Source: Patescibacteria group bacterium (GTDB lineage: Bacteria > Patescibacteriota > Minisyncoccia > Phycocordibacterales > UBA1006). From it: a stretch of DNA of 64,000 nucleotides. The notes beneath the pieces were generated by a model. The model was not told the DNA's origin. It worked only from the letters and a program-made list of their open reading frames with translations, and ran no database searches. Numbering within the stretch: position 1 is the first letter of the stretch; every line of letters starts with the position of its first letter. The DNA is taken from the NCBI GenBank assembly GCA_028286885.1, contig JAQBQS010000008.1, forward strand, positions 12,121 to 76,120, read 5' to 3'. The translations under genes were made by a program, and so were the position numbers. Below are positions 1,435 through 63,795 of the stretch, piece after piece.

Positions 1435-2556
1435 TTATTGGATATAAATCCTCGGCACGCGGTCCGAGATGCATGTGGTGATTTCGTGCGGAGCCGTGCC
1501 GATTTTCTCGGCAATCATTTTTGCCGTGATGGCACAGTCGCCATCCGTTCCGATAAGGATCACCTCGTCATCCAAATAGGCCGTACCTGAGTTTCCAAGC
1601 GAAACCATGACTTGATCCATGCAAACGCGGCCGGCAACGCCGTATCGTTCTCCGCGCACAATGACTTCGCCTAAATTGGAAAGCCTGCGAGGAAACCCAT
1701 CGGCGTATCCGACGGGAATCGAAATGATGCGCGCGTAATCATCCCCGGGCTTCCATGACCTGCCATAGCCGACCGGTTCGTCATTTGAAACCACCTTGAA
1801 ATAAACAACTTTTGTTTTCCACTGGAGCGACGGGCGCATACTCGCCGGCAAAATATCAAACTCGGTTTCAGGCTCGATTCCGTAGAGCGCGATTCCGGGG
1901 CGCACCATGTCCAAATGAAATTGCGGATACATGAAAATTGAACGCGAGCTGCATGTATGCCTGATTGGAATGGTTAAGCCAATAGATTTCGCGTAATCAA
2001 TAACGTTCAAAAAACGATCGAACTGAATTCTTGTATAATCAGAATCGAGCGAATCGGAGAAGTGGGTATAGATTCCTTCGCACATAATTTTGGATTCATT
2101 CACAAGCTGCTTTGCATAATCAATCAGCGCATGGAACCGCTCCCAGTGCACGCCGATGCGTCCCATGCCCGTATCGATTTTCAAATGCACTGTTGGAATT
2201 TTTTTCTGAACTTCGGCAATAGTCGCGATTCTTGTCAATTTATCAAGCGATGACGCGGTGACGGTCAAGTCATGATTAATGCATATTTCAATGTCATCAT
2301 TATCCACTCCCGCCATGACAAGAATAGGGATCGTAACCCCGGCCTCGCGCAATCTGACACCTTCGTTTGCAATGGCTACTGCCAAATAGTCCGTTCCGCA
2401 TTCTTGCAGTCGTTTGGCAACAGGAACAAGCCCGTGCCCGTAGGCATTGGCTTTGATGACTGCGCAAACTTTCGTAGCCGGATTGCATGCAGACCGAATG
2501 ACGCCCAAATTGTTTTGGATCGCGCCGAGGTCGACTGTGCAGTATGTATTTCGCAT
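1435..2556 (-). CDS. alr: alanine racemase
   Basis: AVIKANAYGHG PLP-lysine motif and full-length Alr architecture. Confidence 0.9.
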   Translation of the reverse strand: MRNTYCTVDLGAIQNNLGVIRSACNPATKVCAVIKANAYGHGLVPVAKRLQECGTDYLAVAIANEGVRLREAGVTIPILVMAGVDNDDIEICINHDLTVTASSLDKLTRIATIAEVQKKIPTVHLKIDTGMGRIGVHWERFHALIDYAKQLVNESKIMCEGIYTHFSDSLDSDYTRIQFDRFLNVIDYAKSIGLTIPIRHTCSSRSIFMYPQFHLDMVRPGIALYGIEPETEFDILPASMRPSLQWKTKVVYFKVVSNDEPVGYGRSWKPGDDYARIISIPVGYADGFPRRLSNLGEVIVRGERYGVAGRVCMDQVMVSLGNSGTAYLDDEVILIGTDGDCAITAKMIAEKIGTAPHEITTCISDRVPRIYIQ

Positions 2557-2583
2557 AGAAACGAGTATACCAAACTGACAGAA

Positions 2584-3054
2584 TTACCAAACTCTCTCAA
2601 TATCACGAGTTCCAGACTCATATTCCCTGATCCTGCGCATAGTTGCAGGGCTCGTATCGAACGGAAGCAAACCAAGATGAAACCATTTTGCATCGTCAAG
2701 TTCATATCCTCGCACGAATTGTGAGTCCGTACATATGAGAATTAAAATTTCTACTGCGTCCGTCTTGCCTTCCCGCTGATTAAAATAGACGCCAAGTTTT
2801 TCATGATGCGTAATCCATTGCGGCGGGATGCGCAATTCCTCCCACAGTTCGCGAAGAAGGCCGTCAAATGTGTTTTCAGATTTCTTAATCCCTCCGCCGG
2901 GAAGCGACCAGTAATCGCGCATCGCATGTTTGACCAAGAGTATGTGATTGTCTCGAATAAGAAGCCCTCGCGCGCCTCGCGTATGAGGGCGAAAAACTTT
3001 CCAGTAGATCCGCGCCCACGGATAAAAAATATGTTTGAAGAGAAACTTTTTCAC
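2584..3054 (-). CDS. NUDIX hydrolase
   Basis: Nudix box GGGIKKSENTFDGLLRELWEE. The first codon is GTG. Confidence 0.8.
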   Translation of the reverse strand: MKKFLFKHIFYPWARIYWKVFRPHTRGARGLLIRDNHILLVKHAMRDYWSLPGGGIKKSENTFDGLLRELWEELRIPPQWITHHEKLGVYFNQREGKTDAVEILILICTDSQFVRGYELDDAKWFHLGLLPFDTSPATMRRIREYESGTRDIERVW

Positions 3055-3101
3055 GAATGAATTTTAGCATGAAAAAAGCGACCCTGGTGGATCGCCTTGA
3101 G

Positions 3102-3812
3102 TTAGCCTCCGATGAGGCTTCCGAATGAAGTATCGGCAAGATCAGGCTGCTCGAGATCTTCGAGTTTCATGATTTTAATGGAAATAGAATTGCGTTTTGC
3201 AAACGCGAACGCTTCCAGATCCATCACCTCATATTGCTTGTCGAGAACCTCCTGGTAGCCGATGTGTGGAATGATCGTTGCCTGAGGATCTTTTTTCGGA
3301 TCTGCCGTAAACAGGCCTCCGACTTCCGTAACTTTGACGACGAATTTTACTCCAACCTCATACGCATAGCTTACGGCAGCCATATCGGTTGTGAATCCGC
3401 AACGGCCGGTACCTCCGCCAAAAATAATGATATGACCTTTACCGGTCCACCATTTTGCTTTGCCCGCTTCATAGGGATGAAGCTCAAGCGAAGGATACCC
3501 TGTCGGGGTCATGACATGAGCCTTTTGACCGATCCGACATAGCATTTTTTTCAGCATGAGGGCGTTCAGAAGCGTTGAAGCCATTCCGATGTGGTCCGCT
3601 TCACCGTCCTCGAATTTGAATTGCTCAAGTTCGCGGCCGCGTACGATATTGCCGCCACCCACGACGACATATACCTGACAGCCGAGCCTTTCTTTCAAGC
3701 CTAGGATAAGCTTGGCAATGCCGAGCACGTTATCGTAATTAAACAACTGTTGGCCGTTTTCTTGTTTCGTGCCCAAGAGTTCCCCTGAAATCTTTACTAA
3801 TATATTTTTCAT
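3102..3812 (-). CDS. pyrH: UMP kinase
   Basis: KISGE and VVGGGN motifs; 236 aa. Confidence 0.9.
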   Translation of the reverse strand: MKNILVKISGELLGTKQENGQQLFNYDNVLGIAKLILGLKERLGCQVYVVVGGGNIVRGRELEQFKFEDGEADHIGMASTLLNALMLKKMLCRIGQKAHVMTPTGYPSLELHPYEAGKAKWWTGKGHIIIFGGGTGRCGFTTDMAAVSYAYEVGVKFVVKVTEVGGLFTADPKKDPQATIIPHIGYQEVLDKQYEVMDLEAFAFAKRNSISIKIMKLEDLEQPDLADTSFGSLIGG

Positions 3813-3909
3813 TTTTAATGTTTTGTTTCGAAAGTCAAAGTATCATGAAATTTAAAAAAGATCAAGGCTGATTTCAAAATAAAAAACCGCCCTTTCCAAG
3901 CGGCTTGTT

Positions 3910-4631: not shown

Positions 4632-5339
4632 TCAACTTTTGAAAGCATTAACTTCTTTTTCGCTCAGCTCCCTCACGTCCCCGCTTTTCATATTTCCAAC
4701 CTTGATGCTGCCGATGCGGATGCGCTTCAACTCTTCGATCGTCAACCGACACGCGTCAGCCATTCTGCGGATCTGGTGCTTGCGCCCTTCGCGCAAGATG
4801 ATCGAGAATACCGTATCATTCAATCGTTTCGTTTTTGCGGGCAATGTCTTCTTGCCGTCAAGAACAATTCCTTTTGCCATCTTTTCAATTGCTTCATCCG
4901 TCACGGGTTCACGCGTCGTGACAATATATTCCTTTTCGACTTCGGAGTTTTCACCTGTGATCGCGCGGGTAACCAACCCGTCATTCGTAAGGAGGATCAG
5001 GCCTTCGGAATCCTTGTCGAGGCGGCCGACCGGCGAAAGCGTTGCCAGCGCCGGAAATTCGTCATGGATATCAACCGAGTCCTCGCTTGTCTTGCTTGTC
5101 TCGATTCCGCGCGGCTTGTACAAAACCACGGTCGTCTTCTTTTCAATCTTGCCAACAATGGCAACCTTGTCAGTTTTTGGATCAACACCAAAGCCAGTCT
5201 CTCTAACTATTTTTCCATTTACGGAAATCTTGCCGTCCAAAATCAGCTGCTTGCCTTCCCGGCGCGAACAAAGTCCTTCTTGAGCTATGAACTTTTCGAG
5301 GCGGATTAATCCTTTTTCAAGAGTACTCTGATCTTTCAT
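4632..5339 (-). CDS. pseudouridine synthase, RsuA/RluB family (S4 domain + catalytic domain)
   Basis: N-terminal S4-like segment, followed by the GRLDKDSEGLILLTNDG catalytic-Asp motif. Confidence 0.8.
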   Translation of the reverse strand: MKDQSTLEKGLIRLEKFIAQEGLCSRREGKQLILDGKISVNGKIVRETGFGVDPKTDKVAIVGKIEKKTTVVLYKPRGIETSKTSEDSVDIHDEFPALATLSPVGRLDKDSEGLILLTNDGLVTRAITGENSEVEKEYIVTTREPVTDEAIEKMAKGIVLDGKKTLPAKTKRLNDTVFSIILREGRKHQIRRMADACRLTIEELKRIRIGSIKVGNMKSGDVRELSEKEVNAFKS

Positions 5340-5389
5340 GGAAAAACTGTAGCATAAAAAAGCAGGAATAAATCCTGCCTTACTTTAAA

Positions 5390-6431: not shown

Positions 6432-6459
6432 TCAAGTATTCTTGGCACTATGCTATACT
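6432..6459 (+). promoter_or_regulatory. sigma70-like promoter (TCAAGT-16-TATACT), -10 box 9 nt upstream of priA ATG
   Basis: Read directly from the sequence. Confidence 0.4.
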
Positions 6460-6468
6460 GCAAAAATC

Positions 6469-8376
6469 ATGAAGATCCTGACCGTCATCCCCATCGCCAA
6501 AGGCATCCCCCGCGACGAGCTGTCGTATTTTTCCGCGAAGCAGGTGGGGCTCGGTACGATGGTAACGGTTCCCTTCGGCGGAAGAAAAATCAAGGCAATC
6601 GTGATTGACGAAAACGAAGTCCGCGACTTGAAGCAGTCGATCAAGAATGAATCGTACTCCTTGAAAAATATTTTAGAGATCCACGCTGACGGATTGCCAT
6701 ACTGCATATTCGCATCGGCGCAAAAAACTGCGCGGTTTTTCGGACAGCCTGCCGGAGCCATTTTGGAGACAATGGTTCCTAAGCCGCTTTTTGAAAAGTA
6801 CTTGTCAAACCCCACCCCACCCCTCCCCGAAGCTCGAGAGGGCGCCCGCAACGCTGATATCCAATCAATTCAAGCTCCCTACCGCGAGCGCATTTCGATT
6901 TACAAGACGATGATCCGGGAAAACATGGCGCGCAACTCCTCGACCATGGTCATCGCACCGACGGTCATTCAGGCCGAGACCTTGTTCGCCGAGCTGAAAC
7001 TTGGAATTGACGACAGAATATTCGCCCTTCACGGAAAGGTTTCCAAGAAAAAATTAGAGTCGAACATCAAAAACGTTTTCGAACGCGAGACGCCGATCGT
7101 TGTCATCGCGACGCCGCCTTATTCGTCTGTCTTGCGCAACGACTGGGCGTCATTCATCGTCGAGCAGTCAAGCTCGCATAATTATCGATACGACTTCAAG
7201 CCGAATTTCGACATGCGGCTGTTCCTCGAACAGTTCGCGTTAGCATGTCGCGCACGCGTGATCTATGCCGACACGCTTTTGGATATCGGAATTCGCACCC
7301 GCATTAACAAGCGGGAAATAATAGAAAACAGAAATACCTGGCATATTGCGAAACCGGAAAATTTCCGCGTGACGGACATGAAGCCTGACGAACGGCCGGA
7401 CACCGTACGAATTTCTCCCATCAAGTCTGACATCTTGGGCATTGATGCGTGCGCCATGCTCACGGCAGGAATAAAAGACAATGCGAACATAATGCTCTTG
7501 TCGCAGCGAAAAGGCATTGCACCCATGACAACCTGCGTAGACTGCGGAACGGTGGTGTCATGCCCCGTATGCGATACGCCTCTCGTCCTGCATCGCAAGA
7601 AGCCTAACTCTGCCGAGCGAATTTATATGTGCCATCATTGCCTCACCTCTTCGATCGCGCTTGATTACTGCAAGAACTGCAACGGATCCAGGTTCAAGAT
7701 GTTCGGCATTACAACAGAAACGATTCGCGCCGAAGTCGAGAAAATCTTTCCGACCGCGCGCACCTTTTTAATCGACGGCGATAATGCAGCGACTCCGGCA
7801 GCGGTTTCAAAAACCATCTCTGCATGGCAAGAGGAATCTGGAATTCTGATTGCGACCCAAGCCATGCTGCCGTATATTCCGTCGGCTGACATGGGCTGCA
7901 TCGTTTCGATGGATTCGATGCTCTCGATGCCTTCCTACACGTCCGGCGAAAACGCCGTGTACTCGATCGTCTCGTTCCTCGAGAAAATTTCGCGCGCCGC
8001 AATCGTCCAGACGAGAATGCATTCGCACGAAGCGGTGCAGGCCATCGAGCGCGAGGACTTGCACGGATTCATGAAGTCCGAACTTGAATCGAGAATCCAG
8101 TTCGGCTATCCGCCTGAAAAAATACTTTTGAAGATTTCGCTTGATGCCAAGAAAACAGACGCCAAGGATGCCAGCGTTTACTTGGAAACGATTTTCAAGA
8201 AATACGATCCTGACATCCTGATGAAAAAATCAAGGGACATCGACAATTCGATTATTCAAGCCGTCATGAAAATCGAGCCGACACTCTGGAACGACGAGAA
8301 TTCCCGCATCCAGCAAATCGTACGCGAAATGCCTCGGGAATTCACACGCGAAGTAAATCCAGATTCGGTTATTTGA
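6469..8376 (+). CDS. priA: primosomal protein N' (PriA)-like, helicase motifs degenerate
   Basis: N-terminal 3'-DNA-binding-like segment (TMVTVPFGGRKIKAIVI). Zinc cluster CVDCGTVVSCPVCDTP...MCHHC...CKNCNG. PriA-like order of motif blocks, but no GxGKT Walker A and no DEEH motif. ATG at 6469 follows TATACT at 6454..6459. Confidence 0.7.
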   Translation: MKILTVIPIAKGIPRDELSYFSAKQVGLGTMVTVPFGGRKIKAIVIDENEVRDLKQSIKNESYSLKNILEIHADGLPYCIFASAQKTARFFGQPAGAILETMVPKPLFEKYLSNPTPPLPEAREGARNADIQSIQAPYRERISIYKTMIRENMARNSSTMVIAPTVIQAETLFAELKLGIDDRIFALHGKVSKKKLESNIKNVFERETPIVVIATPPYSSVLRNDWASFIVEQSSSHNYRYDFKPNFDMRLFLEQFALACRARVIYADTLLDIGIRTRINKREIIENRNTWHIAKPENFRVTDMKPDERPDTVRISPIKSDILGIDACAMLTAGIKDNANIMLLSQRKGIAPMTTCVDCGTVVSCPVCDTPLVLHRKKPNSAERIYMCHHCLTSSIALDYCKNCNGSRFKMFGITTETIRAEVEKIFPTARTFLIDGDNAATPAAVSKTISAWQEESGILIATQAMLPYIPSADMGCIVSMDSMLSMPSYTSGENAVYSIVSFLEKISRAAIVQTRMHSHEAVQAIEREDLHGFMKSELESRIQFGYPPEKILLKISLDAKKTDAKDASVYLETIFKKYDPDILMKKSRDIDNSIIQAVMKIEPTLWNDENSRIQQIVREMPREFTREVNPDSVI

Positions 8377-8790: not shown

Positions 8791-8819
8791 TTGATAATTC
8801 TCTATTTTTGTTCTATAAT
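8791..8819 (+). promoter_or_regulatory. promoter TTGATA-17-TATAAT, 6 nt before ATG 8826
   Basis: Near-consensus boxes. Confidence 0.5.
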
Positions 8820-8825
8820 AATTTC

Positions 8826-9686
8826 ATGATGTTAAAGACTCTTCCCCAGCCTGACTACGAATTGTTGGATTCAGGCAACGGGAAAAAATTGGAACGATAC
8901 GGAAAATTCGTACTGTCGCGGCCTGATCCGCAAGCGTTGTGGTCGCACTTGTTGCCTGCGGCACAATGGTCTGATGCGGACGCTCTTTTCGTGCGCGAAG
9001 GAAAAAACGTCCAGTGGAAAAAATCAAAGGATGTTCCCGAGTCTTGGAATATCAATTTCGGCGGGCTTGTATTTGACATCCGACCAAGCTCGTTCAAACA
9101 TACGGGACTCTTCCCCGAGCACCTGATGAACTGGGAGTGGATGAAGGAGAAAATCAAGAAATCAAAACGAACACCAAACGTTTTGAATCTCTTCGGTTAC
9201 ACCGGAGGCGCGAGTTTGGCATGCGCACAATCTGGTGCCGAGGTCACGCATGTGGACGGATCCAAAATGGCGATTTCATGGGCGCGAAAAAATCAGGAGC
9301 TTTCCAATTTAAATGACAAACCGATCCGTTGGATTCTCGACGACGCGATGCTTTTCCTGAAGCGGGAAATCAAGCGCGGAAACCGCTACGACGCGATCAT
9401 CATGGATCCGCCGGCATTCGGCCATGGACCGAAAGGCGAGGTTTGGAAAATCGAGGAACAGTTCGCGGATCTGATGGATCTGTGCACGAAAGTCCTCTCC
9501 GAGAATCCATTATTTTTCGTCATCAACGGATACGCATCCGGCTATTCGGCGCTCGCCTACCAAAACAACTTGATTCCTTTGCAAGAAACATTCGGCGGAA
9601 TTATTGAAAGCGGCGAACTTGTCATTGAGGAATCAAATACGAACCGACTTCTTCCCTGTGGGATTTTTGCGCGGTGGTCGAGGTAA
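8826..9686 (+). CDS. class I SAM-dependent rRNA methyltransferase (RlmI/YccW-like)
   Basis: GYTGGASLACAQSGAEVTHVDGS SAM-binding segment and IIMDPPAFG motif. Start taken at ATG 8826 (MMLKTL), downstream of TTGATA-17-TATAAT. Confidence 0.7.
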   Translation: MMLKTLPQPDYELLDSGNGKKLERYGKFVLSRPDPQALWSHLLPAAQWSDADALFVREGKNVQWKKSKDVPESWNINFGGLVFDIRPSSFKHTGLFPEHLMNWEWMKEKIKKSKRTPNVLNLFGYTGGASLACAQSGAEVTHVDGSKMAISWARKNQELSNLNDKPIRWILDDAMLFLKREIKRGNRYDAIIMDPPAFGHGPKGEVWKIEEQFADLMDLCTKVLSENPLFFVINGYASGYSALAYQNNLIPLQETFGGIIESGELVIEESNTNRLLPCGIFARWSR

Positions 9687-10285: not shown

Positions 10286-10336
10286 TTGTCAAAACAGCTT
10301 GCGCAAAAAAACGACCTGTGGTAAAGTGTCCCCACT

Positions 10337-10579
10337 ATGGCAATTAATGTAGCAGTCACAAAGACAAACAACGAAAACTCAGCGAGCGTTTTGCGACGAT
10401 TCGTCAAGAAGGTCCGCGGCGCAGGCTTCCTCCAGGAAGTTCGTGACAAGCGATACTACGCACGCGCAAGCTCGAAGCTCCGAACCAAAAATTCAAAAAT
10501 GGTTGGAATCGCCCGAAGCGCAAAACGCAAAGTCGACTTGAAACTCGGTTTGATCCAGGAAAATGCAAAGCGAAACTAA
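10337..10579 (+). CDS. rpsU: 30S ribosomal protein S21
   Basis: Size and S21-like pattern: VLRRFVKKVRGAGFLQEVRDKRYYARASSKLRTK. Confidence 0.75.
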   Translation: MAINVAVTKTNNENSASVLRRFVKKVRGAGFLQEVRDKRYYARASSKLRTKNSKMVGIARSAKRKVDLKLGLIQENAKRN

Positions 10580-10974: not shown

Positions 10975-11006
10975 GATTTTGATAATTGCATAAAATTTTA
11001 TATACT
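10975..11006 (+). promoter_or_regulatory. promoter TTGATA-16-TATACT, 9 nt before ftsA ATG
   Basis: Near-consensus boxes. Confidence 0.45.
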
Positions 11007-11015
11007 ATCAATATC

Positions 11016-12197
11016 ATGGCATCTTCCTCGCAAAAAATAATCGTCGGAATCGATATCGGCTCCCAGATCGTGCGCGTCATCGTGGCCGAGGAAGCCGCAA
11101 AGATCGGCATGGCTCCCAAGATCGTCGCAGTCGGCTGGGCCGAGTCGCGCGGTATCCATCACGGCTACGTAATTTCTCCGCGCGATGCCACAACATCAGT
11201 CGCCGAAGCCATTGCCATGGCCGAGAAATCATCAGGCATCGAGATCAAGCGCGCATATGTCAGCTTGGGCGGGATCAGTCTGTCTTCCGAAATCGCAGGA
11301 GGGGCATCGTCGGTGGGACGCGCTGACGGTGAAGTTACCGAAGACGACATGATGTCGGTCGTATCGATTGCCCGCGAAGCGTTCGGCGCTGCCAAGAAAA
11401 ATAAAAAAATATTGCACGCCATTCCGATGAAATACCGGTTAGACGGCGCCGAAGTTATGGGCAACCCTGTTGGCATGCGTGGATCGCGTTTGGAAACACG
11501 CGTCGTATTCGTCACAGTACAAGAACATCATTTCAATGATCTCGTCTCCGTCATCACGGACGCCGGCGTCGACATTATCGAGGTGATCGCTGCGCCGATC
11601 GCCGAATCGCTCGCAACCTTATCCAAGAAGCAAAAAATGGTTGGATGCGGACTCTTGAATATCGGAGCGGACACCGTATCGCTCGCGGTATTTGATTCGG
11701 ACGTTCCCGTTTCGGTTGCAACGTTTGCAATCGGATCAAGCGACATCACCAATGACATAGCGCTGGGGCTTCGCGTTACGCTCGAAGAGGCCGAACGCGT
11801 CAAAATCGGCAAGTTCGAAGCCGGACAATATCCGAAGAAAAAAATAGAAGAAATCATCGACGCGAGGCTTTCTGATATTTTCGAACTCATTCAAAACCAT
11901 TTGAAATCAATCAAGCGCGACGGACTTCTCCCTGCAGGAATCATCATCACGGGCGGCGGCGGGATGCTCACCCATATCGACGAGTTCTCAAAATCGGCAT
12001 TGAAGCTTCCTTCCCTTGTCATGCATGTGGACCAGATCATGAACACCCGCAAAGGTCTCGATCCGTCATGGCTTGTCGCCTATGGACTTTGCTATCTTGA
12101 AGATGACGAGGAGGTCTATGGATCCAAGATCTTCAAGCAGATGTTCAAGGAATCCAAGAAAGGAATCATGAAGATTCTGCGAGAATTCTTACCATAA
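11016..12197 (+). CDS. ftsA: cell division protein FtsA
   Basis: Actin-like ATPase with IIVGIDIGSQIVRV N-terminus; 394 aa. ATG 11016 follows TTGATA-16-TATACT. Confidence 0.9.
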   Translation: MASSSQKIIVGIDIGSQIVRVIVAEEAAKIGMAPKIVAVGWAESRGIHHGYVISPRDATTSVAEAIAMAEKSSGIEIKRAYVSLGGISLSSEIAGGASSVGRADGEVTEDDMMSVVSIAREAFGAAKKNKKILHAIPMKYRLDGAEVMGNPVGMRGSRLETRVVFVTVQEHHFNDLVSVITDAGVDIIEVIAAPIAESLATLSKKQKMVGCGLLNIGADTVSLAVFDSDVPVSVATFAIGSSDITNDIALGLRVTLEEAERVKIGKFEAGQYPKKKIEEIIDARLSDIFELIQNHLKSIKRDGLLPAGIIITGGGGMLTHIDEFSKSALKLPSLVMHVDQIMNTRKGLDPSWLVAYGLCYLEDDEEVYGSKIFKQMFKESKKGIMKILREFLP

Positions 12198-14127: not shown

Positions 14128-14156
14128 TTGTCAAGTAATCACTTCGCTGATATAAT
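14128..14156 (+). promoter_or_regulatory. promoter TTGTCA-17-TATAAT, 8 nt before trxB ATG
   Basis: Near-consensus boxes. Confidence 0.5.
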
Positions 14157-14164
14157 TCCTCCCT

Positions 14165-16978: not shown

Positions 16979-17007
16979 TTGAAAATCAAGTCAAACCATG
17001 CTACGAT
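16979..17007 (+). promoter_or_regulatory. promoter TTGAAA-17-TACGAT, 6 nt before tsaD ATG
   Basis: Spacing is canonical. Confidence 0.4.
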
Positions 17008-17013
17008 GCGTGC

Positions 17014-18580: not shown

Positions 18581-18631
18581 ATTTTCTTTTTAATCTAGCA
18601 AAAAAGAGATAAAAATGCTATATTTTCCAAC

Positions 18632-21519: not shown

Positions 21520-21574
21520 AAACAAACGCGAAAACCCTTGCGTTTGTTTTTGCATATGGCGTATAATGATGCAT

Positions 21575-45865: not shown

Positions 45866-45923
45866 AATCTAAAGATTTTTTCCATCATATCACACAACAA
45901 CGTTTCGTGTATAATGGTTCCAT

Positions 45924-46958: not shown

Positions 46959-47013
46959 ATTGATTAGTATAGCAACACTTTTCTTTTTTCCGCAATTATG
47001 CTAACATGGCCCC

Positions 47014-51808: not shown

Positions 51809-51941
51809 AGAAATTTTTTAAGGTAATTTGAATTAAATAACAATATTATGTCACTAGGATAATACAATATTATTTACAATTTCGCAATCTTTCACAAATT
51901 TATCTCGATTTTATGTCCAAGACGCGCTATAATAGTGCACA

Positions 51942-53096
51942 ATGAAACACCGCCAACTTCTGCGCACCACATACTGGGCAGGCTTTCTTTTCTCGCTGCA
52001 CGTCGCCCTGACTGTCTTCGTAAACTCTTCATTCCTCTCGACGCGGATCTCGGACTCGCTCGTAGGGCTCTTTTATGCTGCATCAGCGATCGTCGGCATT
52101 GCCGGGCTGTATCTCGTTCCAAAGCTCATCAACTGGTTCGGAACGAGTCGCGTCTTGGGCTTTCTCATGCTTGCCAACATCGTGAATCTCTTTGTGTTCG
52201 GCGCAGTATCAAACCCATATATTATCGGCGCAAGCTTCATTCTCTTCTTCGCGTTCAATACACTTCTGTATCTCGGCATCGATATCATCGTCGAACGATT
52301 CTCCGAGAATTCCGCCCAAGGCGATGTACGCGGTTCGTATTTAACAATGATGAACCTGGGATATGTACTCGCGCCGCTTCTCGGCGGATTCATTCTCGAC
52401 CGGCTTGGATTCTCGGCGCTGTACGGATTTGCGGTTGTCATCCTCGTTCCTGTCATCATTGTCATATCATTTCAGCTGCCAACCATCCGGACAACGCATC
52501 CTTCCAAGGAAAACATCCTCGAACTTGCCAAGAAGTTCATGCAGCACAAGAGGTTCCGGCTCGCATTTTTCGTAAACTTTATCCTGCAATTCTTCTATGC
52601 GTGGATGGTCATCTATACACCGATCTATTTGCACGAAATCGCGCACATCGCGTGGGACACCATCGGAATCATTTTCGCGATCATGCTGACCGCGTTCGTC
52701 ATTCTTGAATATCCTCTTGGAAAAATTGCCGACAAGATTCACATCGAAAAACACTTGATGATTATTGGATTGTTTATCATGGGATTTGCAACACTGTTTG
52801 TCGCGCGCGCTCCATCGATAAGTATTTTGTCGCTGACGTTGATTCTTCTTGTCACGCGCGTAGGTGCGAGCATGGTGGAAGTCGCCACCGAATCATACTT
52901 TTTCAAGTCGGTGCATCATGACGACACGGGCTCGATCGGATTCTTCCGAAACACGTATCCGTTCGCCTATATCCTCGCACCCCTCATCGCCTCGCTCGTC
53001 CTCAAGTTCGCACCGCTGAAGGCCTTGTTTCCAATTCTTGGCGTAATCTGTTTTCTTGGAATTTTGATTGCGGGCAGAATTAGGAAGGTAAAATAA
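51942..53096 (+). CDS. MFS transporter
   Basis: About 12 TM helices. TATAAT lies 8 nt upstream of the ATG. Confidence 0.8.
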   Translation: MKHRQLLRTTYWAGFLFSLHVALTVFVNSSFLSTRISDSLVGLFYAASAIVGIAGLYLVPKLINWFGTSRVLGFLMLANIVNLFVFGAVSNPYIIGASFILFFAFNTLLYLGIDIIVERFSENSAQGDVRGSYLTMMNLGYVLAPLLGGFILDRLGFSALYGFAVVILVPVIIVISFQLPTIRTTHPSKENILELAKKFMQHKRFRLAFFVNFILQFFYAWMVIYTPIYLHEIAHIAWDTIGIIFAIMLTAFVILEYPLGKIADKIHIEKHLMIIGLFIMGFATLFVARAPSISILSLTLILLVTRVGASMVEVATESYFFKSVHHDDTGSIGFFRNTYPFAYILAPLIASLVLKFAPLKALFPILGVICFLGILIAGRIRKVK

Positions 53097-57400: not shown

Positions 57401-58912
57401 TTATTTTAAGGCGTCCGTGCTGACGCGGTCGCCTTCCGAAAGTCCTGAAAGAATTTCGGTCGAACTGTCGCTTCCGCGAATTCCGGTCGTAATCGTTCGC
57501 TTTTCAGTCTTATCATCCTTGTTAATCACATAGACATATGACGAACGATCCGTATCGCTGTGAATAAAACTTGCCGGAATCGAAAGAACGTTTTCTTTCG
57601 AGGAAATAACAATCGTCGCTGTTGCCGTCATTCCTGATCGAATTCGCTCATCAGGGGTCGTAAACGCAACTTTCGTTTCATAGACGGGAACGCCGCTTAC
57701 TATTGTCTCTGCAGGATCAATCGTCGTGATCTTTCCTGGGAAGACGACTCCTGCTCCATAGGCATCAAGCGCAATATCAACTGATTGTCCAACTGACAAT
57801 TTGGCAACGCTGATTTCAGGAACATCAAGAACAACCTCGTAATCGCTTTGCGAGATGAGCGTGATTGTCGAACCGCTTGTTCCAGTTGTCGATGAATCTG
57901 ATGATCCAATCGATGTTGTGGTTTGTCCCGGTTTCAAGTTTACGTTTGCAACTGTTCCATCAAACGATGCAACAATACGGCGGCGTCCGATCTGCGACAA
58001 GATGCTGTCTACTTGGGACTGCGCCTGCTCTACGCGAGCCTGTGCGATCGAATTGTCGGTTCCGTTTTGCGAGAGGTCAGCTTTCGCATTTGAGATAGCA
58101 AGATCGCGCGCCGAAAGCGCCGCCGAATAAGCATTGTAGTTCGCCGTATAATTCGGCGAGCGTTTGTTAGGAATATTCACCACCCATTTTGTTCCCGCGT
58201 AAAGATAACCTGTTCCGGGAAATGAAATGAAAAGACCCTTCGTGCCGAGCGGTACGGGAGTATTTGAGCTTACTTGTCCTACATTTGATTCAAGTCCTGA
58301 TGTTGACCATGAAGCGCCCGAGTTAGAATTCGATGAATACACCGTAATGTCATACTCGCCTTCTGATCCGGAATAGGTTCCTGAAATTACCGGAGCCTGG
58401 ATGCTCGGGTTGATGTTCACATCATTTGATGCGGCAGCAAGGCCATTCGATAAAAGGTTGCTGTAGGCATTGGCAACCAATGTGTTCTGCTGCGCCGTTA
58501 CGTTGTCCAAACTTGTCGTGTTCGTTGCAACTCCTGCCCGCGCAATGGTGAGAGCCGCCTGTGCGTTTTTGAGATTTGCATACAAGTCAGACGTATCGAG
58601 AGACGCGAGGATTTGCCCCTGCTGAACTTTCTGCCCTTCGGAAACGGAAACGCTTGCAACCCTGCCCTGGTCGGCAAAGCCGAGTTCCACCGCGCTCGCG
58701 GATTTCGTGCGCCCTGAAAGGACGACTGAATCGACAACATTCGCCCGCGTTGCGGTTGCAACCGTCGCGTCGGCGGTTTTCGTTCCTTTGTGGAAGATCG
58801 CAAAAAGGATAATGATGACTACGACGACAATGAACCAGAATAATTTGCTTTTCTTGTTATTGTTCCAGAAGGTTTTAGCGCGTTCGATAAATGATTTCAT
58901 GGGGTGCATCAT
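57401..58912 (-). CDS. HlyD-family periplasmic adaptor (MacA-like membrane fusion protein)
   Basis: N-terminal TM helix and coiled-coil/lipoyl-like segments. Lies 1 nt upstream of the permease gene. Confidence 0.75.
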   Translation of the reverse strand: MMHPMKSFIERAKTFWNNNKKSKLFWFIVVVVIIILFAIFHKGTKTADATVATATRANVVDSVVLSGRTKSASAVELGFADQGRVASVSVSEGQKVQQGQILASLDTSDLYANLKNAQAALTIARAGVATNTTSLDNVTAQQNTLVANAYSNLLSNGLAAASNDVNINPSIQAPVISGTYSGSEGEYDITVYSSNSNSGASWSTSGLESNVGQVSSNTPVPLGTKGLFISFPGTGYLYAGTKWVVNIPNKRSPNYTANYNAYSAALSARDLAISNAKADLSQNGTDNSIAQARVEQAQSQVDSILSQIGRRRIVASFDGTVANVNLKPGQTTTSIGSSDSSTTGTSGSTITLISQSDYEVVLDVPEISVAKLSVGQSVDIALDAYGAGVVFPGKITTIDPAETIVSGVPVYETKVAFTTPDERIRSGMTATATIVISSKENVLSIPASFIHSDTDRSSYVYVINKDDKTEKRTITTGIRGSDSSTEILSGLSEGDRVSTDALK

Positions 58913-58953
58913 AGCATTTTTGGCTTAAATGTTCCATAAGCAAAAAGGACTTG

Positions 58954-60756
58954 TTAGTCCTTTTTCTGCTTCTTCGCCCGTCCTGATTCCTGCAAGACCT
59001 GCTTGCGGATTCGCGTAGACTTCGGCGTGATTTCGAGATATTCGTCTTCGGTCATGATCTCCAGTCCTCGCTCGATCGTAACTGCGATCGGCGGGATGAG
59101 GAGAATCGTCTCGTCCGTACCGGACGCTCGCATGTTGGTGAGCTGCTTGCCTTTCGTCGGGTTGACCACCATCTCATCGCCCTTCGCGGTGTTTCCGATA
59201 ACCATTCCCTCGTAGACCTCGGTCTGCGGACCAATGTAGAGCTGTCCTCGATCCTGGAGGTTTCCAAGAGCGAATCCGAGCGCCTTGCCCGACTCCATCG
59301 ATGTCATCGATCCGACGGATCGTTTCTCGATAAATCCTGCATACGCGCGGAACTCGAGGAATCGCGATGCCATGATTCCCTCTCCCTTCGTGTCGATCAT
59401 GAACTGCCCGCGATATCCGAAAAGTCCACGTGTCGGTCCTTCAAACAGCATTCGCACGCTGTTCTGATGGATTTTCATGTCCTTCATGATGAACGCGCGC
59501 TTGCCGAGTTTCTCAATGACTGAACCCTGGAATTCCGACGGAACGTCGATGGTGACTTCCTCAAACGGCTCGCTTTTGACGCCGTCGATGTCTTTTACGA
59601 TCGCCTGCGGCTGCGATACCTGGATCTCGAATCCTTCGCGTCGCATGTTTTCAAGAAGCACGGCGATGTGCATCTCGCCTCGTCCGTACACCTTGAATCC
59701 TTCGAGCGCTCGGTCAGGATCCGGTTCGAAATCGACTCGCAAACCTACGTTGATCTCGAGTTCTTTTTCAAGTCGCTCGCGAATCTGTCGCGTCGTTACG
59801 AATTTTCCTTCGCGTCCTGCGAACGGTGAATTGTTGACCAAGAAGTCCAATTTGATTGTCGGCTCGTCAACTGTAATGGCTGGAAGTGCTTCAACGTTTG
59901 GATCGGTTGCAACAGTCTCTCCGATGAAGATATCCGCAATTCCGGCGATCATCGCGATGTCTCCGGCAACTACCTCGTCAACTTCCTTTCGATTCGTTCC
60001 TTCAAATGAGAACAGTTTTGTAATCTTGCCTGGTCGTCGTGTTCCTGTGATCGGGTTTACGATCGTAACGGTCTGACCATTCTTAGCAATTCCCTCGTAA
60101 ACGCGTCCAACTCCCAATCGTCCGAGGAAGTTGTCATATGCCAAGTTAAACGGCTGCATTCGAAACGGCTTTGTCGTATCGTTCGCAGCTGGCGGAACTT
60201 TTTCAAGGACCGTATCAAAGAGAGGTTTCAAGTCAACCAGAGGGTCGTCCATCTTTCGCTTTGCGGTTCCGTCTCGTCCGATCGCATAGACTGTCGTAAA
60301 GTCGAGCTGCTCGTCGGTCGCGCCGAGTTCCATGAAGAGCTCGAAAACTTCGTCGTGAGCCTTCTCGACGTTCGCACCCGGCTTGTCGATCTTGTTCAAA
60401 ACCAAAATTGGCTTGAGGCCGAGCTCGAGTGATTTCTTGAGCACGAATCGTGTTTGCGGCATCGGGCCTTCCTGCGCGTCCACGATGAGTAGTACCGAGT
60501 CAATTGATCGCAATACTCGCTCTACTTCGGAACCGAAGTCGGCATGTCCCGGAGTGTCCACAATGTTGATTTTTGTTCCATTGTAAAATACCGATGTATT
60601 CTTGGCGTAAATTGTAATTCCTCGCTCCTGCTCCAGAGCGTTTGAGTCCATTGAAACTCCAGCTTCGCGCATTCCGCACTGCTCGAGCATGTTGTCCGTA
60701 AGCGTCGTCTTGCCGTGGTCCACGTGTGCAATAATTGCAATATTTCGAATTTCCAT
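58954..60756 (-). CDS. typA: translational GTPase TypA/BipA
   Basis: [17 protein letters not shown] and BipA-like C-terminus. Start at ATG 60756. Confidence 0.9.
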
Positions 60757-60846
60757 AAGGTTCCAATCGTAACAAAAATTTGACATTTTGGCAAGGGTTT
60801 TCTATAGTTCCCAAGAAAACACATTCATCCACCTTAAAAATAAAAT

Positions 60847-62193: not shown

Positions 62194-62257
62194 CGAACTT
62201 CACCAAAAGATACAGATCGTGTCTTTTTTATTTACTTAAATTTGATATACTCGAACC

Positions 62258-62497
62258 ATGAATACATTACTTGCAACGAATATTCTCTTGGCCGCGATCG
62301 TGCTCGTATTTCTGGTCGTCGGAATCATGGTCGCCGTTCTCTTGGCAAACCTGATCGGAACGACGCGGCGAATCAAGCATATCGTGACCGTCTTTGACGA
62401 CGACGTCATCCGCGCGCGGTCGGTCGTTTCCGCGATCAAGGATTTGGTCGTCGATAAGCTTTTTGGAAAGCACAAAGAGCATAAGGAAAAGAAATAA
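62258..62497 (+). CDS. small membrane protein
   Basis: One TM helix. An extended -10 (TGaTATACT) lies 6 nt upstream, and a strong terminator follows. Confidence 0.45.
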   Translation: MNTLLATNILLAAIVLVFLVVGIMVAVLLANLIGTTRRIKHIVTVFDDDVIRARSVVSAIKDLVVDKLFGKHKEHKEKK

Positions 62498-62505
62498 ATA
62501 AAATA

Positions 62506-62545
62506 TCGCCAAGAATACATCTGTATTCTTGGCGATATTTTATTT
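62506..62545. terminator. bidirectional terminator
   Basis: aaatatcgccaagaataca-tc-tgtattcttggcgatatttt, a 19-bp stem. Confidence 0.6.
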
Positions 62546-62613
62546 GCATCAACCTTGCGACAAGAATATAATGAAAGAGGTCACTCAATTAATTTTTTAA
62601 CTTACAGAAATCT

Positions 62614-62994
62614 ATGGCACAGAAAAACACGAACACTGCAAATCTGATCAAAGGTCTCGGCATCGCGGGAGCAGCCGCTGCCGCGATCGCAGGAGGATAT
62701 TTCTTCTACGGAAAAGACGGCGCCAAGCACCGCAAGAATTTGAAATCATGGGCTGTCAAAGCCAAAGCGGAGGTCCTCGAGAAGCTCGAGAAAGCAAAAG
62801 ACATGTCCGAGGAAAACTACAACATGGCGATTGATTCCATTGCCGACAAGTATTCCAAGGTAAAGAGCATGGACCAGGCTGACGTCGCGGCATTCGCGAA
62901 AGACTTGAAAAAGCATTGGAAAGACATCAAGCGCGAAATTTCTCCAGCTCCTGCAAAGAAGGCTGCCAAGAAATCAGCAAAGAAGTCCAAATAA
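62614..62994 (+). CDS. hypothetical Lys/Ala-rich protein with N-terminal hydrophobic segment
   Basis: 126 aa; flanked by terminators. Confidence 0.5.
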   Translation: MAQKNTNTANLIKGLGIAGAAAAAIAGGYFFYGKDGAKHRKNLKSWAVKAKAEVLEKLEKAKDMSEENYNMAIDSIADKYSKVKSMDQADVAAFAKDLKKHWKDIKREISPAPAKKAAKKSAKKSK

Positions 62995-63060
62995 TTTGGA
63001 ACAGGAAAGCCATGCTGACGAGTATGGCTTTTTTCGCGCCTCTGCTATAATTGCCCCCAT

Positions 63061-63795
63061 ATGGAAGATACCCCAAAACCAATCTTGACCGACAACAGGC
63101 CATTTCGCCCGAAGCATCTGACGATCGACGATATCCGCGCCGGCTGCGTAAAATTGCACGGTGAAAACGGAGTTGAAACGGAAATCTGCGTATCCGACGA
63201 GGAACTGCGGCAAGGACTCGACTTTGTGGAGCATTTGGAAAAATCAATCACGATCTTCGGTTCCGCTCGAACACTGCAAGGCGACAAGTACTATGAAAAA
63301 GCCGTCCGCGTCGCCCACCGAGCCGTAAAGGAATGCGGATGCGCGGTGATCACCGGCGGCGGTCCCGGCATCATGCAGGCCGGCAACCAAGGAGCATACG
63401 AGGCAAATGGAAAATCAATCGGCATGCAGATCATTTTACCGCATGAACAAGTCACGAATCCGTATCTGACCGACGTGATCCCCTTCTATTTCTTCTATAA
63501 TCGCAAGACCGTCATGCGCTATGCATCCGAAGTCTACCTTTTCTTCCCAGGCGGATTCGGAACGCTCGACGAGCTGTCGGAGTCGCTGACGTTGGTACAG
63601 ACCGGCAAGATCGCAAACGTAAAGCTCATTCTCGTCGGCGTCGAGTTTTGGAAGCCGTTCCAAACATTCGTCGAGGAAAGGCTCGTTCCGCAAGCTCTCG
63701 TTTCCCCGACCGACGTCAACTTGTATACGATTACGGACGACGAAGACGAGATTGCGGAGATCATCAGGAACGCCCCGAAGCGAGAAAAGAATTAA
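63061..63795 (+). CDS. LOG family protein (cytokinin riboside 5'-monophosphate phosphoribohydrolase-like)
   Basis: ITGGGPGIMQAGNQGA and PGGFGTLDEL motifs. Confidence 0.8.
   Translation: MEDTPKPILTDNRPFRPKHLTIDDIRAGCVKLHGENGVETEICVSDEELRQGLDFVEHLEKSITIFGSARTLQGDKYYEKAVRVAHRAVKECGCAVITGGGPGIMQAGNQGAYEANGKSIGMQIILPHEQVTNPYLTDVIPFYFFYNRKTVMRYASEVYLFFPGGFGTLDELSESLTLVQTGKIANVKLILVGVEFWKPFQTFVEERLVPQALVSPTDVNLYTITDDEDEIAEIIRNAPKREKN

What the first reader, a model, noticed from the sequence alone, without database searches (positions are those of the whole stretch)
2554..63063. Recurrent promoter geometry with the -10 box 6-9 nt upstream of ATG, implying widespread leaderless mRNAs
At least a dozen genes have a clear TATAAT-like hexamer 6-9 nt before the start codon, usually with a -35 box at 16-17 nt spacing. 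No Shine-Dalgarno sequence is present in any of them.
- alr: TATACT-8-ATG, start 2556, minus strand.
- priA: TATACT-9-ATG, start 6469.
- Methyltransferase: TTGATA-17-TATAAT-6-ATG, start 8826.
- ftsA: TTGATA-16-TATACT-9-ATG, start 11016.
- trxB: TTGTCA-17-TATAAT-8-ATG, start 14165.
- tsaD: TTGAAA-17-TACGAT-6-ATG, start 17014.
- valS: TATATT-7-ATG, start 18632.
- Hsp20: TATAAT-7-ATG, start 21575.
- Large membrane protein: TTGCAA-16-TAAATT-8-ATG, start 26991, minus strand.
- DUF1003: TATAAT-8-ATG, start 45924.
- secG: TAACAT-6-ATG, start 47014.
- MFS: TATAAT-8-ATG, start 51942.
- Small membrane protein: TGaTATACT-6-ATG, start 62258.
- LOG: TATAAT-9-ATG, start 63061.
Transcription would begin at or 1-3 nt before the ATG. 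This also helps choose the true starts where the ORF track begins at an upstream TTG or GTG.
Basis: partly seen in the sequence, partly recalled or inferred. Interest (0 to 1): 0.55.

Follow-up and report, generated by a model that had tools for sequence, protein, structure and literature searches.

The report
Leaderless-gene promoters in a CPR bacterium
In this candidate-phyla-radiation (Parcubacteria-type) genome about four genes in ten have a promoter -10 box only 6-9 bases before the ATG and no gene has a Shine-Dalgarno site, so many mRNAs probably start at the start codon; this architecture is well known in other bacteria but I found no report of it in this lineage.

Summary
All 14 listed sites exist as described; the only error is the alr spacer, which is 7 nt, not 8. 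At least 14 further genes show the same geometry, giving 28 of about 68 genes.

It is far above chance. Taking the first ATG of each gene, 20 of 68 genes have a -10 box 5-9 nt upstream, against 5.1±2.1 in shuffles. The sites look like DNA promoters:
- TG at -15/-14 in 18 of 28 sites, where 5.6% is expected.
- A -35 element at more sites than in shuffles.
- In 12 of 28 sites a terminator hairpin sits directly upstream.

The geometry holds across 80 related Patescibacteria/Paceibacterota genomes, where the spacer peaks at 6 nt. It is conserved at orthologous priA, rpsU and trxB but not at ybeY or ftsZ. Shine-Dalgarno motifs are essentially absent: 2% of genes here and 5% in relatives, against 42% in an E. 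coli control. Leadered genes have A-rich, G-poor upstream regions.

The best reading is extended -10 sigma-70 promoters producing leaderless or 1-3 nt-leader mRNAs in a lineage that does not use Shine-Dalgarno pairing. This is a known kind (Actinobacteria, Deinococcus) in a new lineage. No transcription-start data and no 16S sequence could be obtained.

The parts
2554..2569 (-). alr: TGgTATACT, 7-nt spacer, ATG at 2556
   Evidence: Ala_racemase_N matches from residue 8.
3052..3066 (-). NUDIX gene: TGcTAAAAT, 6-nt spacer, GTG at 3054. The terminator T-run starts 21 nt before the start codon.
5337..5351 (-). S4/pseudouridine synthase gene: TGcTACAGT, 6-nt spacer, ATG at 5339. Terminator 5381-5359 lies directly upstream.
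6454..6471 (+). priA: TGcTATACT, 9-nt spacer, ATG at 6469
   Evidence: An extended -10 box sits before the orthologous ATG in 35 of 48 relatives, mostly with a 6-nt spacer.
8791..8828 (+). SAM methyltransferase gene: TTGATA-17-TATAAT, 6-nt spacer, ATG at 8826. Terminator 8753-8776 lies upstream.
   Evidence: The Logan gene call uses the same start.
10322..10339 (+). rpsU (bS21): TGgTAAAGT, 9-nt spacer, ATG at 10337.
   Evidence: Conserved TTGC -35 and TGnTAnnnT in 39 of 43 relatives, with a 9-11 nt spacer.
10979..11018 (+). ftsA: TTGATA-16-TATACT, 9-nt spacer, ATG at 11016
   Evidence: The Logan gene call uses the same start.
14128..14167 (+). trxB: TTGTCA-17-TGaTATAAT, 8-nt spacer, ATG at 14165
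   Evidence: A -10 box sits 4-11 nt before the orthologous ATG in 59 of 77 relatives.
16979..17016 (+). tsaD: TTGAAA-17-TGcTACGAT, 6-nt spacer, ATG at 17014
18619..18634 (+). valS: TGcTATATT, 7-nt spacer, ATG at 18632, in a 51-nt divergent intergenic region
20759..20796 (+). PrsW protease gene: ATGACA-17-TATGAT, 6-nt spacer, ATG at 20794. This promoter lies inside the 3' end of valS.
21562..21577 (+). hsp20: TATAAT, 7-nt spacer, ATG at 21575 (the third ATG of the ORF). The terminator T-run starts 27 nt before the ATG.
23109..23123 (-). 88-aa gene: TGaTAGAAT, 6-nt spacer, ATG at 23111.
23819..23833 (-). 227-aa gene: terminator 23857-23844, then TGaTAGAAT, 6-nt spacer, ATG at 23821.
24905..24921 (-). 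344-aa gene: TGgTATGAT, 8-nt spacer, ATG at 24907.
26989..27027 (-). Large membrane protein gene: TTGCAA-16-TAAATT, 8-nt spacer, ATG at 26991.
34923..34938 (-). TPR protein gene: cGcTATACT, 7-nt spacer, ATG at 34925.
35094..35110 (+). GlmS-like gene: TAAAAT, 8-nt spacer, ATG at 35108. Weaker site without TG.
40541..40555 (-). T5orf172-domain gene: hairpin and T-run, then TGaTAGAGT, 6-nt spacer, ATG at 40543.
42503..42518 (-). Peptidoglycan-binding protein gene: terminator 42547-42523, then TATACT, 7-nt spacer, ATG at 42505.
45910..45926 (+). DUF1003-like gene: TATAAT, 8-nt spacer, ATG at 45924
46956..46971 (-). Peptidoglycan-binding protein gene: TGcTATACT, 7-nt spacer, ATG at 46958. It lies back-to-back with the secG promoter in a 55-nt intergenic region.
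47002..47016 (+). secG: TGcTAACAT, 6-nt spacer, ATG at 47014
51928..51944 (+). MFS transporter gene: cGcTATAAT, 8-nt spacer, ATG at 51942
58898..58913 (-). HlyD-family gene: TGcTATGAT, 7-nt spacer, ATG at 58900 (the third ATG of the ORF).
60754..60794 (-). typA/bipA: TTGCCA-17-TGtTACGAT, 9-nt spacer, ATG at 60756 (the second ATG of the ORF).
   Evidence: GTP_EFTU matches residues 2-188 to profile positions 2-187.
62246..62260 (+). Small membrane protein gene: TGaTATACT, 6-nt spacer, ATG at 62258
   Evidence: The Logan gene call uses the same start.
63046..63063 (+). LOG gene: hairpin and T-run, then TGcTATAAT, 9-nt spacer, ATG at 63061
   Evidence: The Logan gene call uses the same start.

Best explanation
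The window comes from a Patescibacteria (CPR) bacterium of the Parcubacteria/Paceibacterota type. About 28 of its roughly 68 genes, close to half of those not tightly coupled to an upstream gene, carry a housekeeping sigma-70-type promoter. Most of these are of the extended -10 class (T-R-TG-n-TAnnnT, with a weak or absent -35). The -10 hexamer ends 6-9 nt before the start codon.

RNA polymerase normally initiates about 7 nt (range 6-10) downstream of the last base of the -10 box. The transcript would therefore begin at the A of the ATG for a 6-nt spacer, and at the A or 1-3 nt before it for 7-9 nt spacers. Such an mRNA has no room for a ribosome-binding site. It would be translated by direct recognition of the 5'-terminal AUG by ribosome and initiator tRNA.

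This fits an organism that does not use Shine-Dalgarno pairing at all. The remaining genes have A-rich, G-poor leaders, or overlap or abut the preceding gene, which suggests translational coupling.

Shown here: the sequence geometry, its statistical excess, its promoter-specific features, its conservation across the clade, and the absence of SD motifs. Inferred: the transcription start positions, the mode of ribosome recruitment, and loss of the 16S anti-SD.
For: Excess and position:
- 20 of 68 first-ATG starts have a -10 box at 5-9 nt, against 5.07 +/- 2.06 in shuffles, and against 28 of 2331 for other ATGs.
- In the window, gene-start ATGs downstream of -10 hits cluster at spacers 6-9.

Promoter-specific features:
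- TG at -15/-14 in 18 of 28 sites (p = 2e-16). In the subset chosen on the hexamer alone it is 12 of 21 (p = 1.7e-10).
- A -35 match of at least 4/6 in 9 of 28 sites, against 3.9 +/- 1.8 in shuffles (P = 0.0095).
- The logo from relatives shows TT at -35/-34, T at -17, and T-15 G-14.

No room for a leader or a second promoter:
- 12 of 28 sites have a hairpin with a T-run whose T-run starts 18-57 nt before the start codon. In six sites that distance is 27 nt or less.
- A 55-nt divergent intergenic region holds two back-to-back -10 boxes.

Clade-wide pattern, from 80 related loci totalling 1.19 Mb:
- Extended -10 hits followed by a gene-start ATG number 86, 33, 27 and 25 at spacers 6, 7, 8 and 9, over a baseline of about 4-5.
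- Orthologous starts keep the geometry although the proteins are only 26-80% identical: priA 35/48, rpsU 39/43, trxB 59/77. Controls are low: operon-internal ybeY 15/63 and ftsZ 7/77.
- The extended -10 is half as frequent before operon-internal genes, 11% against 20% (p = 6e-4).

Start codons: Pfam domains begin at residues 2-8 of TypA, TrxB, Alr and SecG. Independent gene calls agree for six starts.

SD absence: GGAG/GAGG/AGGA occurs at -17..-5 in 2% of window genes and 5% in relatives, against 42% in an E. coli control run through the same pipeline. Leadered genes have 45-50% A and 7-9% G upstream.

Literature: a Pribnow box 6-8 nt from the start is the accepted signature of bacterial leaderless genes (PMC6028130). 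The anti-SD motif is missing from the 16S of about half of Parcubacteria (PMC9297842).
Against: - There are no transcription-start data for this organism or any close relative, so leaderlessness is inferred from geometry alone.
- Upstream regions are AT-rich. About 5 of the 20 hexamer-only hits are expected by chance, so individual weak sites (26991, 35108 and others without TG or -35) may be false.
- The -35 element is poor at two thirds of the sites.
- 11% of crudely called operon-internal genes in relatives also carry an extended -10 at 5-9 nt. The first-gene versus internal-gene contrast is therefore only two-fold. Within the window alone it is 0/10 against 14/55 (p = 0.10).
- Spacers of 8-9 nt, and 9-11 nt at rpsU in relatives, may give 1-4 nt leaders rather than strictly leaderless mRNAs.
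- A pyrimidine at -1 occurs at 27 of 28 sites but is also common at other genes (32 of 40), so it does not discriminate.
- The 16S 3' end could not be examined.
Confidence: 0.8

Rival explanations
1. The TAnnnT hexamers are chance products of AT-rich intergenic DNA lying next to start codons, with no function.
For: Upstream regions are AT-rich. Shuffles still give about 5 hits in 68 genes, and the 0-4 nt spacer bin holds 10 hits that come from A/T-rich leaders. The generic promoter scan of the whole window is only mildly above its shuffles: 36 against 28 +/- 5.5, 26 against 23.9, and 30 against 24.1.
Against: The observed count is about 7 standard deviations above the shuffles and confined to spacers 5-9. 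TG at -15/-14 is enriched more than ten-fold. The same position is kept at orthologous genes across 40-77 genomes whose flanking sequence has diverged. In 1.19 Mb of relatives there is a sharp peak at a 6-nt spacer.
Confidence: 0.03
2. The motif is an mRNA-level translation signal, a non-SD A/U-rich ribosome-binding or enhancer element. It would lie inside a leader transcribed from a promoter further upstream, as in Bacteroidota-type genomes.
For: The organism lacks SD sites and its leadered genes do have an A-rich context close to the ATG. 11% of apparent operon-internal genes in relatives carry the motif. There are no transcription-start data.
Against: The motif has features that RNA polymerase reads in DNA and a ribosome would not: invariant T-12, A-11 and T-7; TG two bases upstream; and a TTG-type -35 at 16-18 bp. 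In 12 of 28 sites a terminator hairpin with a T-run ends just upstream, six of them within 27 nt of the start codon, which leaves no upstream promoter. The motif is largely absent at operon-internal ybeY and at leadered ftsZ. Non-leaderless genes show a different, diffuse A-rich profile.
Confidence: 0.07
3. The promoters are real but the start codons are mis-assigned. Translation would begin at a downstream codon, so the mRNAs have ordinary leaders.
For: Starts were not verified experimentally. Several ORFs have more than one candidate ATG, for example hsp20, the HlyD-family gene and the 88-aa gene at 23111. The Hsp20 product starting at 21575 is not on record among public gene calls.
Against: Pfam domains align from residues 2-8 for TypA, TrxB, Alr and SecG. 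Orthologue alignments project onto the same ATG (offset 0) in nearly all priA and rpsU loci listed. tsaD, the MFS gene and other genes have no alternative start within the first 50 codons. Independent gene calls agree for six starts. No SD or other signal marks any downstream codon.
Confidence: 0.05

Closest known systems
Leaderless genes of Actinobacteria and Deinococcus-Thermus (Mycobacterium tuberculosis and M. smegmatis, Streptomyces, Corynebacterium, Deinococcus deserti); the 'group C' genomes of GeneMarkS-2 (PMC6028130)
   Same: A Pribnow box lies 6-8 nt from the start codon of first genes in operons. The share of transcription units involved is similar (25-50% in group C; about 40-47% here). 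The start codon is ATG, rarely GTG. The genome holds a mix of leaderless and leadered genes.
   Different: In those phyla the leadered and operon-internal genes use Shine-Dalgarno sites, and the genomes are GC-rich. Here no gene class shows SD motifs. The genome is small and 47% GC, and the promoters are mostly of the extended -10 (TGn) class. In those phyla leaderless starts were mapped experimentally; here they were not.
SD-poor genomes with A-rich 'Kozak-like' start contexts (Bacteroidota; GeneMarkS-2 group B)
   Same: There is a genome-wide lack of SD motifs. The context just upstream of the start codon of leadered and internal genes is A-rich and G-poor.
   Different: As I recall, Bacteroidota keep the anti-SD but sequester it, and they are not reported as rich in leaderless genes. 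Here an additional large class of genes has a promoter abutting the ATG.
Parcubacteria subgroup whose 16S rRNA lacks the anti-SD motif (Tsurumaki et al. 2022, PMC9297842)
   Same: The taxonomic neighbourhood is the same: the closest FtsZ relatives are Nomurabacteria/Paceibacterota MAGs. The predicted consequence, no SD helices, matches the absence of SD motifs here.
   Different: That paper describes the rRNA and ribosomal proteins, not how mRNAs are then recognised. Whether this organism's 16S lacks the motif could not be checked.
Archaeal (Haloferax, Sulfolobus) and mitochondrial leaderless mRNAs
   Same: A large share of mRNAs begins at or next to the AUG, and SD is not used for first cistrons.
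   Different: The promoter type differs: a TATA/BRE element at about -26 in archaea, against a bacterial -10 box at -12..-7 here.

Membership tests
Bacterial leaderless-gene architecture (GeneMarkS-2 group C type) | A -10 (TAnnnT) box sits at a fixed short distance (about 6-9 nt) upstream of start codons, as a positional peak above background | tested here: met
   Window: 20 of 68 genes against 5.07 +/- 2.06 in shuffles, with other spacer bins at 1-10. Relatives: the peak at spacers 6-9 is 86/33/27/25 over a baseline of about 4-5.
Bacterial leaderless-gene architecture (GeneMarkS-2 group C type) | The motif marks first genes of transcription units and not operon-internal genes | tested here: met
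   Orthologue test: priA 35/48, rpsU 39/43 and trxB 59/77, against internal ybeY 15/63 and leadered ftsZ 7/77. Pooled relatives: 11% internal against 20% for the rest, p = 6e-4. Window alone: 0/10 against 14/55, p = 0.10. The contrast is only two-fold with crude gene calls.
Bacterial leaderless-gene architecture (GeneMarkS-2 group C type) | The transcription start coincides with, or lies within 5 nt of, the first base of the start codon | not testable with these tools
   No transcriptome or 5'-end data were available. Look-ups by exact protein returned only Logan assembly contigs.
Bacterial leaderless-gene architecture (GeneMarkS-2 group C type) | AUG (or GUG) start codon and no SD ahead of it | tested here: met
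   27 ATG and 1 GTG among the 28 sites. No SD-like 4-mer or longer occurs in -20..-3 of any of them.
Sigma-70 extended -10 promoters | TG at -15/-14, one base upstream of the -10 hexamer | tested here: met
   18 of 28 sites. In the subset chosen on the hexamer alone it is 12 of 21, against 5.6% expected (p = 1.7e-10). In 403 sites from relatives G at -14 is 54% and T at -15 is 64%.
Sigma-70 extended -10 promoters | A -35 element (TTGACA-like) 16-18 bp upstream, dispensable when TG is present | tested here: met
   9 of 28 sites match at least 4/6, against 3.9 +/- 1.8 in shuffles (P = 0.0095). 5 of the 10 sites without TG have a good -35, against 4 of the 18 with TG; this is a trend only. Relatives show T at 59% and 54% at -35 and -34.
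Non-SD ribosome-binding motif (group B, Bacteroidota-like), considered as the identity of the TAnnnT motif | The same motif sits at a short distance before all genes, first and internal alike, inside transcribed leaders | tested here: not met
   The motif is depleted at internal genes. Terminators lie immediately upstream in 12 of 28 sites. The motif carries TG and -35 features. A separate diffuse A-rich context does exist at the other genes.
Parcubacteria lacking the 16S anti-SD (PMC9297842) | The 16S rRNA 3' end lacks CCUCC(U) | not testable with these tools
   There is no rRNA in the window and no 16S 3' motif in the window or the 80 related loci.
Parcubacteria lacking the 16S anti-SD (PMC9297842) | No SD motifs upstream of genes | tested here: met
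   2% of window genes and 5% in relatives, against 42% in E. coli with the same pipeline.

The most novel reading that the evidence does not exclude
This Parcubacteria lineage may have abandoned Shine-Dalgarno/anti-SD pairing altogether, with the anti-SD lost from its 16S rRNA. Start sites would then be found in only three ways: a 5'-terminal AUG created by promoters that abut the start codon, for roughly half of transcription units; A-rich unstructured leaders; and re-initiation at overlapping or abutting cistrons. That would be a bacterial lineage with reduced ribosomes whose initiation logic resembles that of archaea and mitochondria. It would also answer a question left open by the report that these 16S rRNAs lack the anti-SD, namely how their mRNAs are recognised.
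Probability: 0.45. Interest if true: 0.6.

Novelty: new member of a known kind. Interest (0 to 1): 0.45.

Why it matters
**Gene calling.** SD-trained gene finders will misplace starts in CPR genomes. The -10-to-ATG rule corrects them: here priA, MTase, ftsA, typA, the HlyD-family gene, hsp20 and the large membrane protein all start 6-60 nt downstream of the longest ORF.

**Biology.** The finding offers a concrete, testable answer to how Parcubacteria reported to lack the 16S anti-SD start translation. It adds a deep-branching lineage with reduced ribosomes to the bacteria that rely heavily on leaderless mRNAs. That bears on ideas that leaderless initiation is ancestral or is favoured by genome streamlining.

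**Engineering.** For the few cultivable Patescibacteria, it indicates what a compact expression cassette should look like: terminator, TGnTATAAT, 6 nt, ATG.

Tried and rejected
**16S anti-SD check.** Rfam found only 4 tRNAs in the window. A search for the conserved 16S 3' motifs in the window and all 80 related loci found nothing. Walking along the source contig through exact-protein look-ups failed, because the edge proteins were not on record or mapped only to short Logan contigs.

**Transcript-level evidence.** Exact-protein look-ups returned only Logan assembly contigs, which say nothing about transcript 5' ends.

**Pyrimidine at -1.** I tested this as a transcription-start signature. It holds at 27 of 28 leaderless candidates, but also at 32 of 40 other genes (p = 0.07), and T at -1 is general in the clade. 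I dropped it as evidence.

**Loose automatic classification.** A score threshold of 5 produced false positives, for example an internal ATG in the Walker A region of an ABC ATPase at 55423 and a site at 4572. The list was therefore curated to require TAnnnT with at least 5/6 matches, or 4/6 plus G at -14 or a -35.

**The generic promoter scan.** It is barely above its shuffles for the window as a whole, so it is not used as evidence of enrichment. It is used only to confirm individual -35/-10 pairs.

**Literature.** Eight searches found no paper linking leaderless mRNAs with CPR, Patescibacteria, Parcubacteria or Saccharibacteria. The supplementary genome tables of GeneMarkS-2 are not held, so I cannot exclude that some CPR genomes were already classed as group C there.

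Full report
**What the window is.** The window is 64 kb at about 47% GC. It carries 4 tRNA genes and no rRNA. Its FtsZ (12681-13850) is closest to MAGs labelled Nomurabacteria, Paceibacterota, Parcubacteria or Patescibacteria. The 80 loci returned have 60-95% identity, and most come with 10-kb flanks. The organism is therefore a candidate-phyla-radiation bacterium of the Parcubacteria type. Fragments of the same genome occur in the Logan assembly of SRR13312974.

**Checking the observation.** All 14 listed sites are present. The hexamers, spacers and the five -35 boxes are as stated. The single error is alr, which is TATACT-7-ATG. Pfam confirms Alr, FtsA, TrxB, TsaD, ValRS, Hsp20, SecG, MFS and LOG. 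PriA and DUF1003 are marginal, and the two membrane proteins have no match.

The list is incomplete. Reading the upstream region of every gene gives at least 14 more sites of the same kind:
- the NUDIX gene at 3054 (GTG start), the S4/pseudouridine synthase gene at 5339, and rpsU at 10337;
- the PrsW gene at 20794, and the genes at 23111, 23821 and 24907;
- the TPR protein gene at 34925 and the glmS-like gene at 35108;
- the T5orf172 gene at 40543, and the peptidoglycan-binding genes at 42505 and 46958;
- the HlyD-family gene at 58900 and typA at 60756.

My curated list has 28 of about 68 genes. Spacers are 6 nt at ten sites, 7 nt at seven, 8 nt at six and 9 nt at five.

**Is it more than chance?** I used a start rule that ignores promoters: the first ATG of each of 68 genes.
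- 20 genes have a -10 box (at least 5/6, A2 and T6) 5-9 nt upstream.
- Shuffling the same 50-nt upstream segments gives 5.07 ± 2.06, with a maximum of 14 in 2000.
- Other 5-nt spacer bins hold 1-10 genes.
- Only 28 of 2331 other ATGs in the window have the motif (odds ratio 34, p = 5e-20).
- Scanning from the motif side, ATGs that open a gene cluster at spacers 6-9.

About a quarter of the hits that rest on the hexamer alone could still be chance. Weak individual sites, such as 26991 and 35108, should be treated with caution.

**Promoter or something else?** Three lines of evidence say DNA promoter.

First, the sites carry the extended -10 dinucleotide. TG is at -15/-14 in 18 of 28 sites. In the 21 sites chosen on the hexamer alone it is 12 of 21, against 5.6% expected (p = 1.7e-10). 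A -35 match of at least 4/6 at 16-18 bp occurs in 9 of 28 sites, against 3.9 ± 1.8 in shuffles. It tends to occur where TG is missing, but the numbers are too small for significance.

Second, 12 of 28 sites have a stable hairpin followed by a T-run that starts 18-57 nt before the start codon. In six sites that distance is 27 nt or less: 3054, 5339, 21575, 23821, 40543 and 42505 (several of the hairpins are also). The layout there is terminator, T-run, (TGn)TAnnnT, 6-7 nt, start codon. This leaves no room for another promoter or a leader.

Third, the 55-nt divergent region between 46958 and 47014 holds two back-to-back -10 boxes.

**Start codons.** Pfam domains align from residue 2 of TypA, which fixes the second ATG at 60756. 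They align from residue 6 of TrxB, and from residue 8 of Alr and of SecG. Gene calls made independently on the Logan contigs use the same starts for MTase, S21, ftsA, trxB, the small membrane protein and LOG. Several genes, including tsaD and the MFS gene, have no other start candidate in their first 50 codons.

**Relatives.** In 1.19 Mb from the 80 related loci, extended -10 hits followed by a gene-start ATG number 86, 33, 27 and 25 at spacers 6, 7, 8 and 9. The baseline is about 4-5. A 6-nt spacer puts position +7 after the hexamer, the canonical start site, on the A of the ATG. Aligning 403 such sites on the hexamer shows TT at -35/-34, T at -17, T-15 G-14 and TAtAAT.

At orthologous genes the geometry is kept although the proteins are only 26-80% identical:
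- priA: 35 of 48 loci, typically aTGcTAnnAT-6-ATG;
- rpsU: 39 of 43 loci, with a conserved TTGC -35 and a 9-11 nt spacer;
- trxB: 59 of 77 loci.

The controls are low: operon-internal ybeY 15 of 63 and leadered ftsZ 7 of 77. With crude gene calls, the extended -10 is half as frequent before genes that abut an upstream gene, 11% against 20% (p = 6e-4). This contrast is smaller than I expected. The likely reasons are promoters inside upstream genes (as at PrsW, 20759-20796, inside valS) and over-long ORF calls.

**No Shine-Dalgarno anywhere.** GGAG, GAGG or AGGA occurs at -17..-5 in 2% of window genes and 5% of genes in relatives. In a 50-kb E. coli control run through the same pipeline the figure is 42%. 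Conversely, the -10-at-5-9 class is 32%, 25% and 2% respectively. GGA is rarer upstream of starts (6 of 68) than in random windows (24%). Genes without the promoter geometry have A-rich, G-poor upstream regions. In the window, A is 45-50% and G is 7-9%. In the window plus relatives, A is 44-51% at -7..-2 and T is 57% at -1. About ten genes overlap or abut the preceding gene, with gaps of -19 to +12 nt. That suggests translational coupling, which is an inference.

**Mechanism proposed.** The housekeeping RNA polymerase holoenzyme binds extended -10 promoters and starts at the A of the ATG, or 1-3 nt before it with longer spacers. The 5'-AUG mRNA is then decoded without any ribosome-binding site. 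Other genes would use A-rich unstructured leaders or coupling. The sequence architecture, its statistics and its conservation are shown here. The start sites and the ribosome pathway are inferred.

**Comparison with what is known.** A Pribnow box 6-8 nt from the start is the accepted mark of bacterial leaderless genes. It defines the 'group C' genomes of GeneMarkS-2, which are dominated by Actinobacteria and Deinococcus-Thermus, with 25-50% of transcripts leaderless (PMC6028130). This window fits that kind. It differs in lacking SD sites at the remaining genes, where it resembles SD-poor Bacteroidota.

Tsurumaki et al. reported that the anti-SD motif is undetectable in the 16S of about half of Parcubacteria. 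They remarked that SD helices probably do not form there (PMC9297842). They did not address how mRNAs are then recognised. Eight full-text searches found no paper connecting leaderless mRNAs with CPR, Patescibacteria, Parcubacteria or Saccharibacteria. The library is partial, and the GeneMarkS-2 genome tables are not held, so prior classification of some CPR genomes cannot be excluded.

**Verdict.** It is a new lineage for a known architecture. Its added interest is that the lineage appears to be entirely free of Shine-Dalgarno sites. Interest is moderate.

Noticed in passing
window 37015-39924 (-): The leucyl-tRNA synthetase (969 aa) carries a NUDIX hydrolase domain at residues 404-528 (Pfam E = 7.6e-15), inserted after the editing domain. 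This is an unusual domain combination.
   Followed up: no
window 39926-40543 (-): A T5orf172/MUG113-domain (GIY-YIG-like) protein gene sits 1 nt upstream of leuS. It has its own terminator plus TGaTAGAGT-6-ATG promoter.
   Followed up: partly
window 53148-53558 (-) and 53722-54141 (-): These are tandem paralogues with no Pfam match. They share an 84%-identical 146-nt upstream block. Each has a strong TTGACA-17-TAATAT promoter with TG and a leader of about 40 nt that is A-rich and lacks SD.
   Followed up: partly
window 18632-21519 (+): ValRS is short (726 aa). Its last 19 nt overlap a PrsW-family protease gene, whose ATGACA-17-TATGAT promoter lies inside the valS coding sequence.
   Followed up: partly
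window, all genes without the -10 geometry; relatives L002-L081: There is a Kozak-like start context instead of SD: A at 44-51% at -7..-2, G at 7-10%, and T at 57% at -1.
   Followed up: partly
rpsU upstream: window 10290-10339 and 43 related loci: The bS21 gene keeps a conserved TTGC -35 and a TGnTAnnnT box, but with a 9-11 nt spacer. That implies a 2-4 nt leader rather than a strictly leaderless mRNA.
   Followed up: partly
window 684-1433 (-): The gene 1 nt downstream of alr has a weak match to the C-terminal domain of arginyl-tRNA-protein transferase (ATE_C, E = 5e-5, just below the Pfam cut-off). It may be a Fem-type or aminoacyl-transferase enzyme coupled to alanine racemase.
   Followed up: no
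window 27845-27861: The palindromic AGTATACT could serve as a -10 box on both strands. It lies 6 nt before an ATG of a doubtful 45-aa ORF on the + strand, and 22 nt before the DivIC-like gene start at 27830 on the - strand.
   Followed up: no
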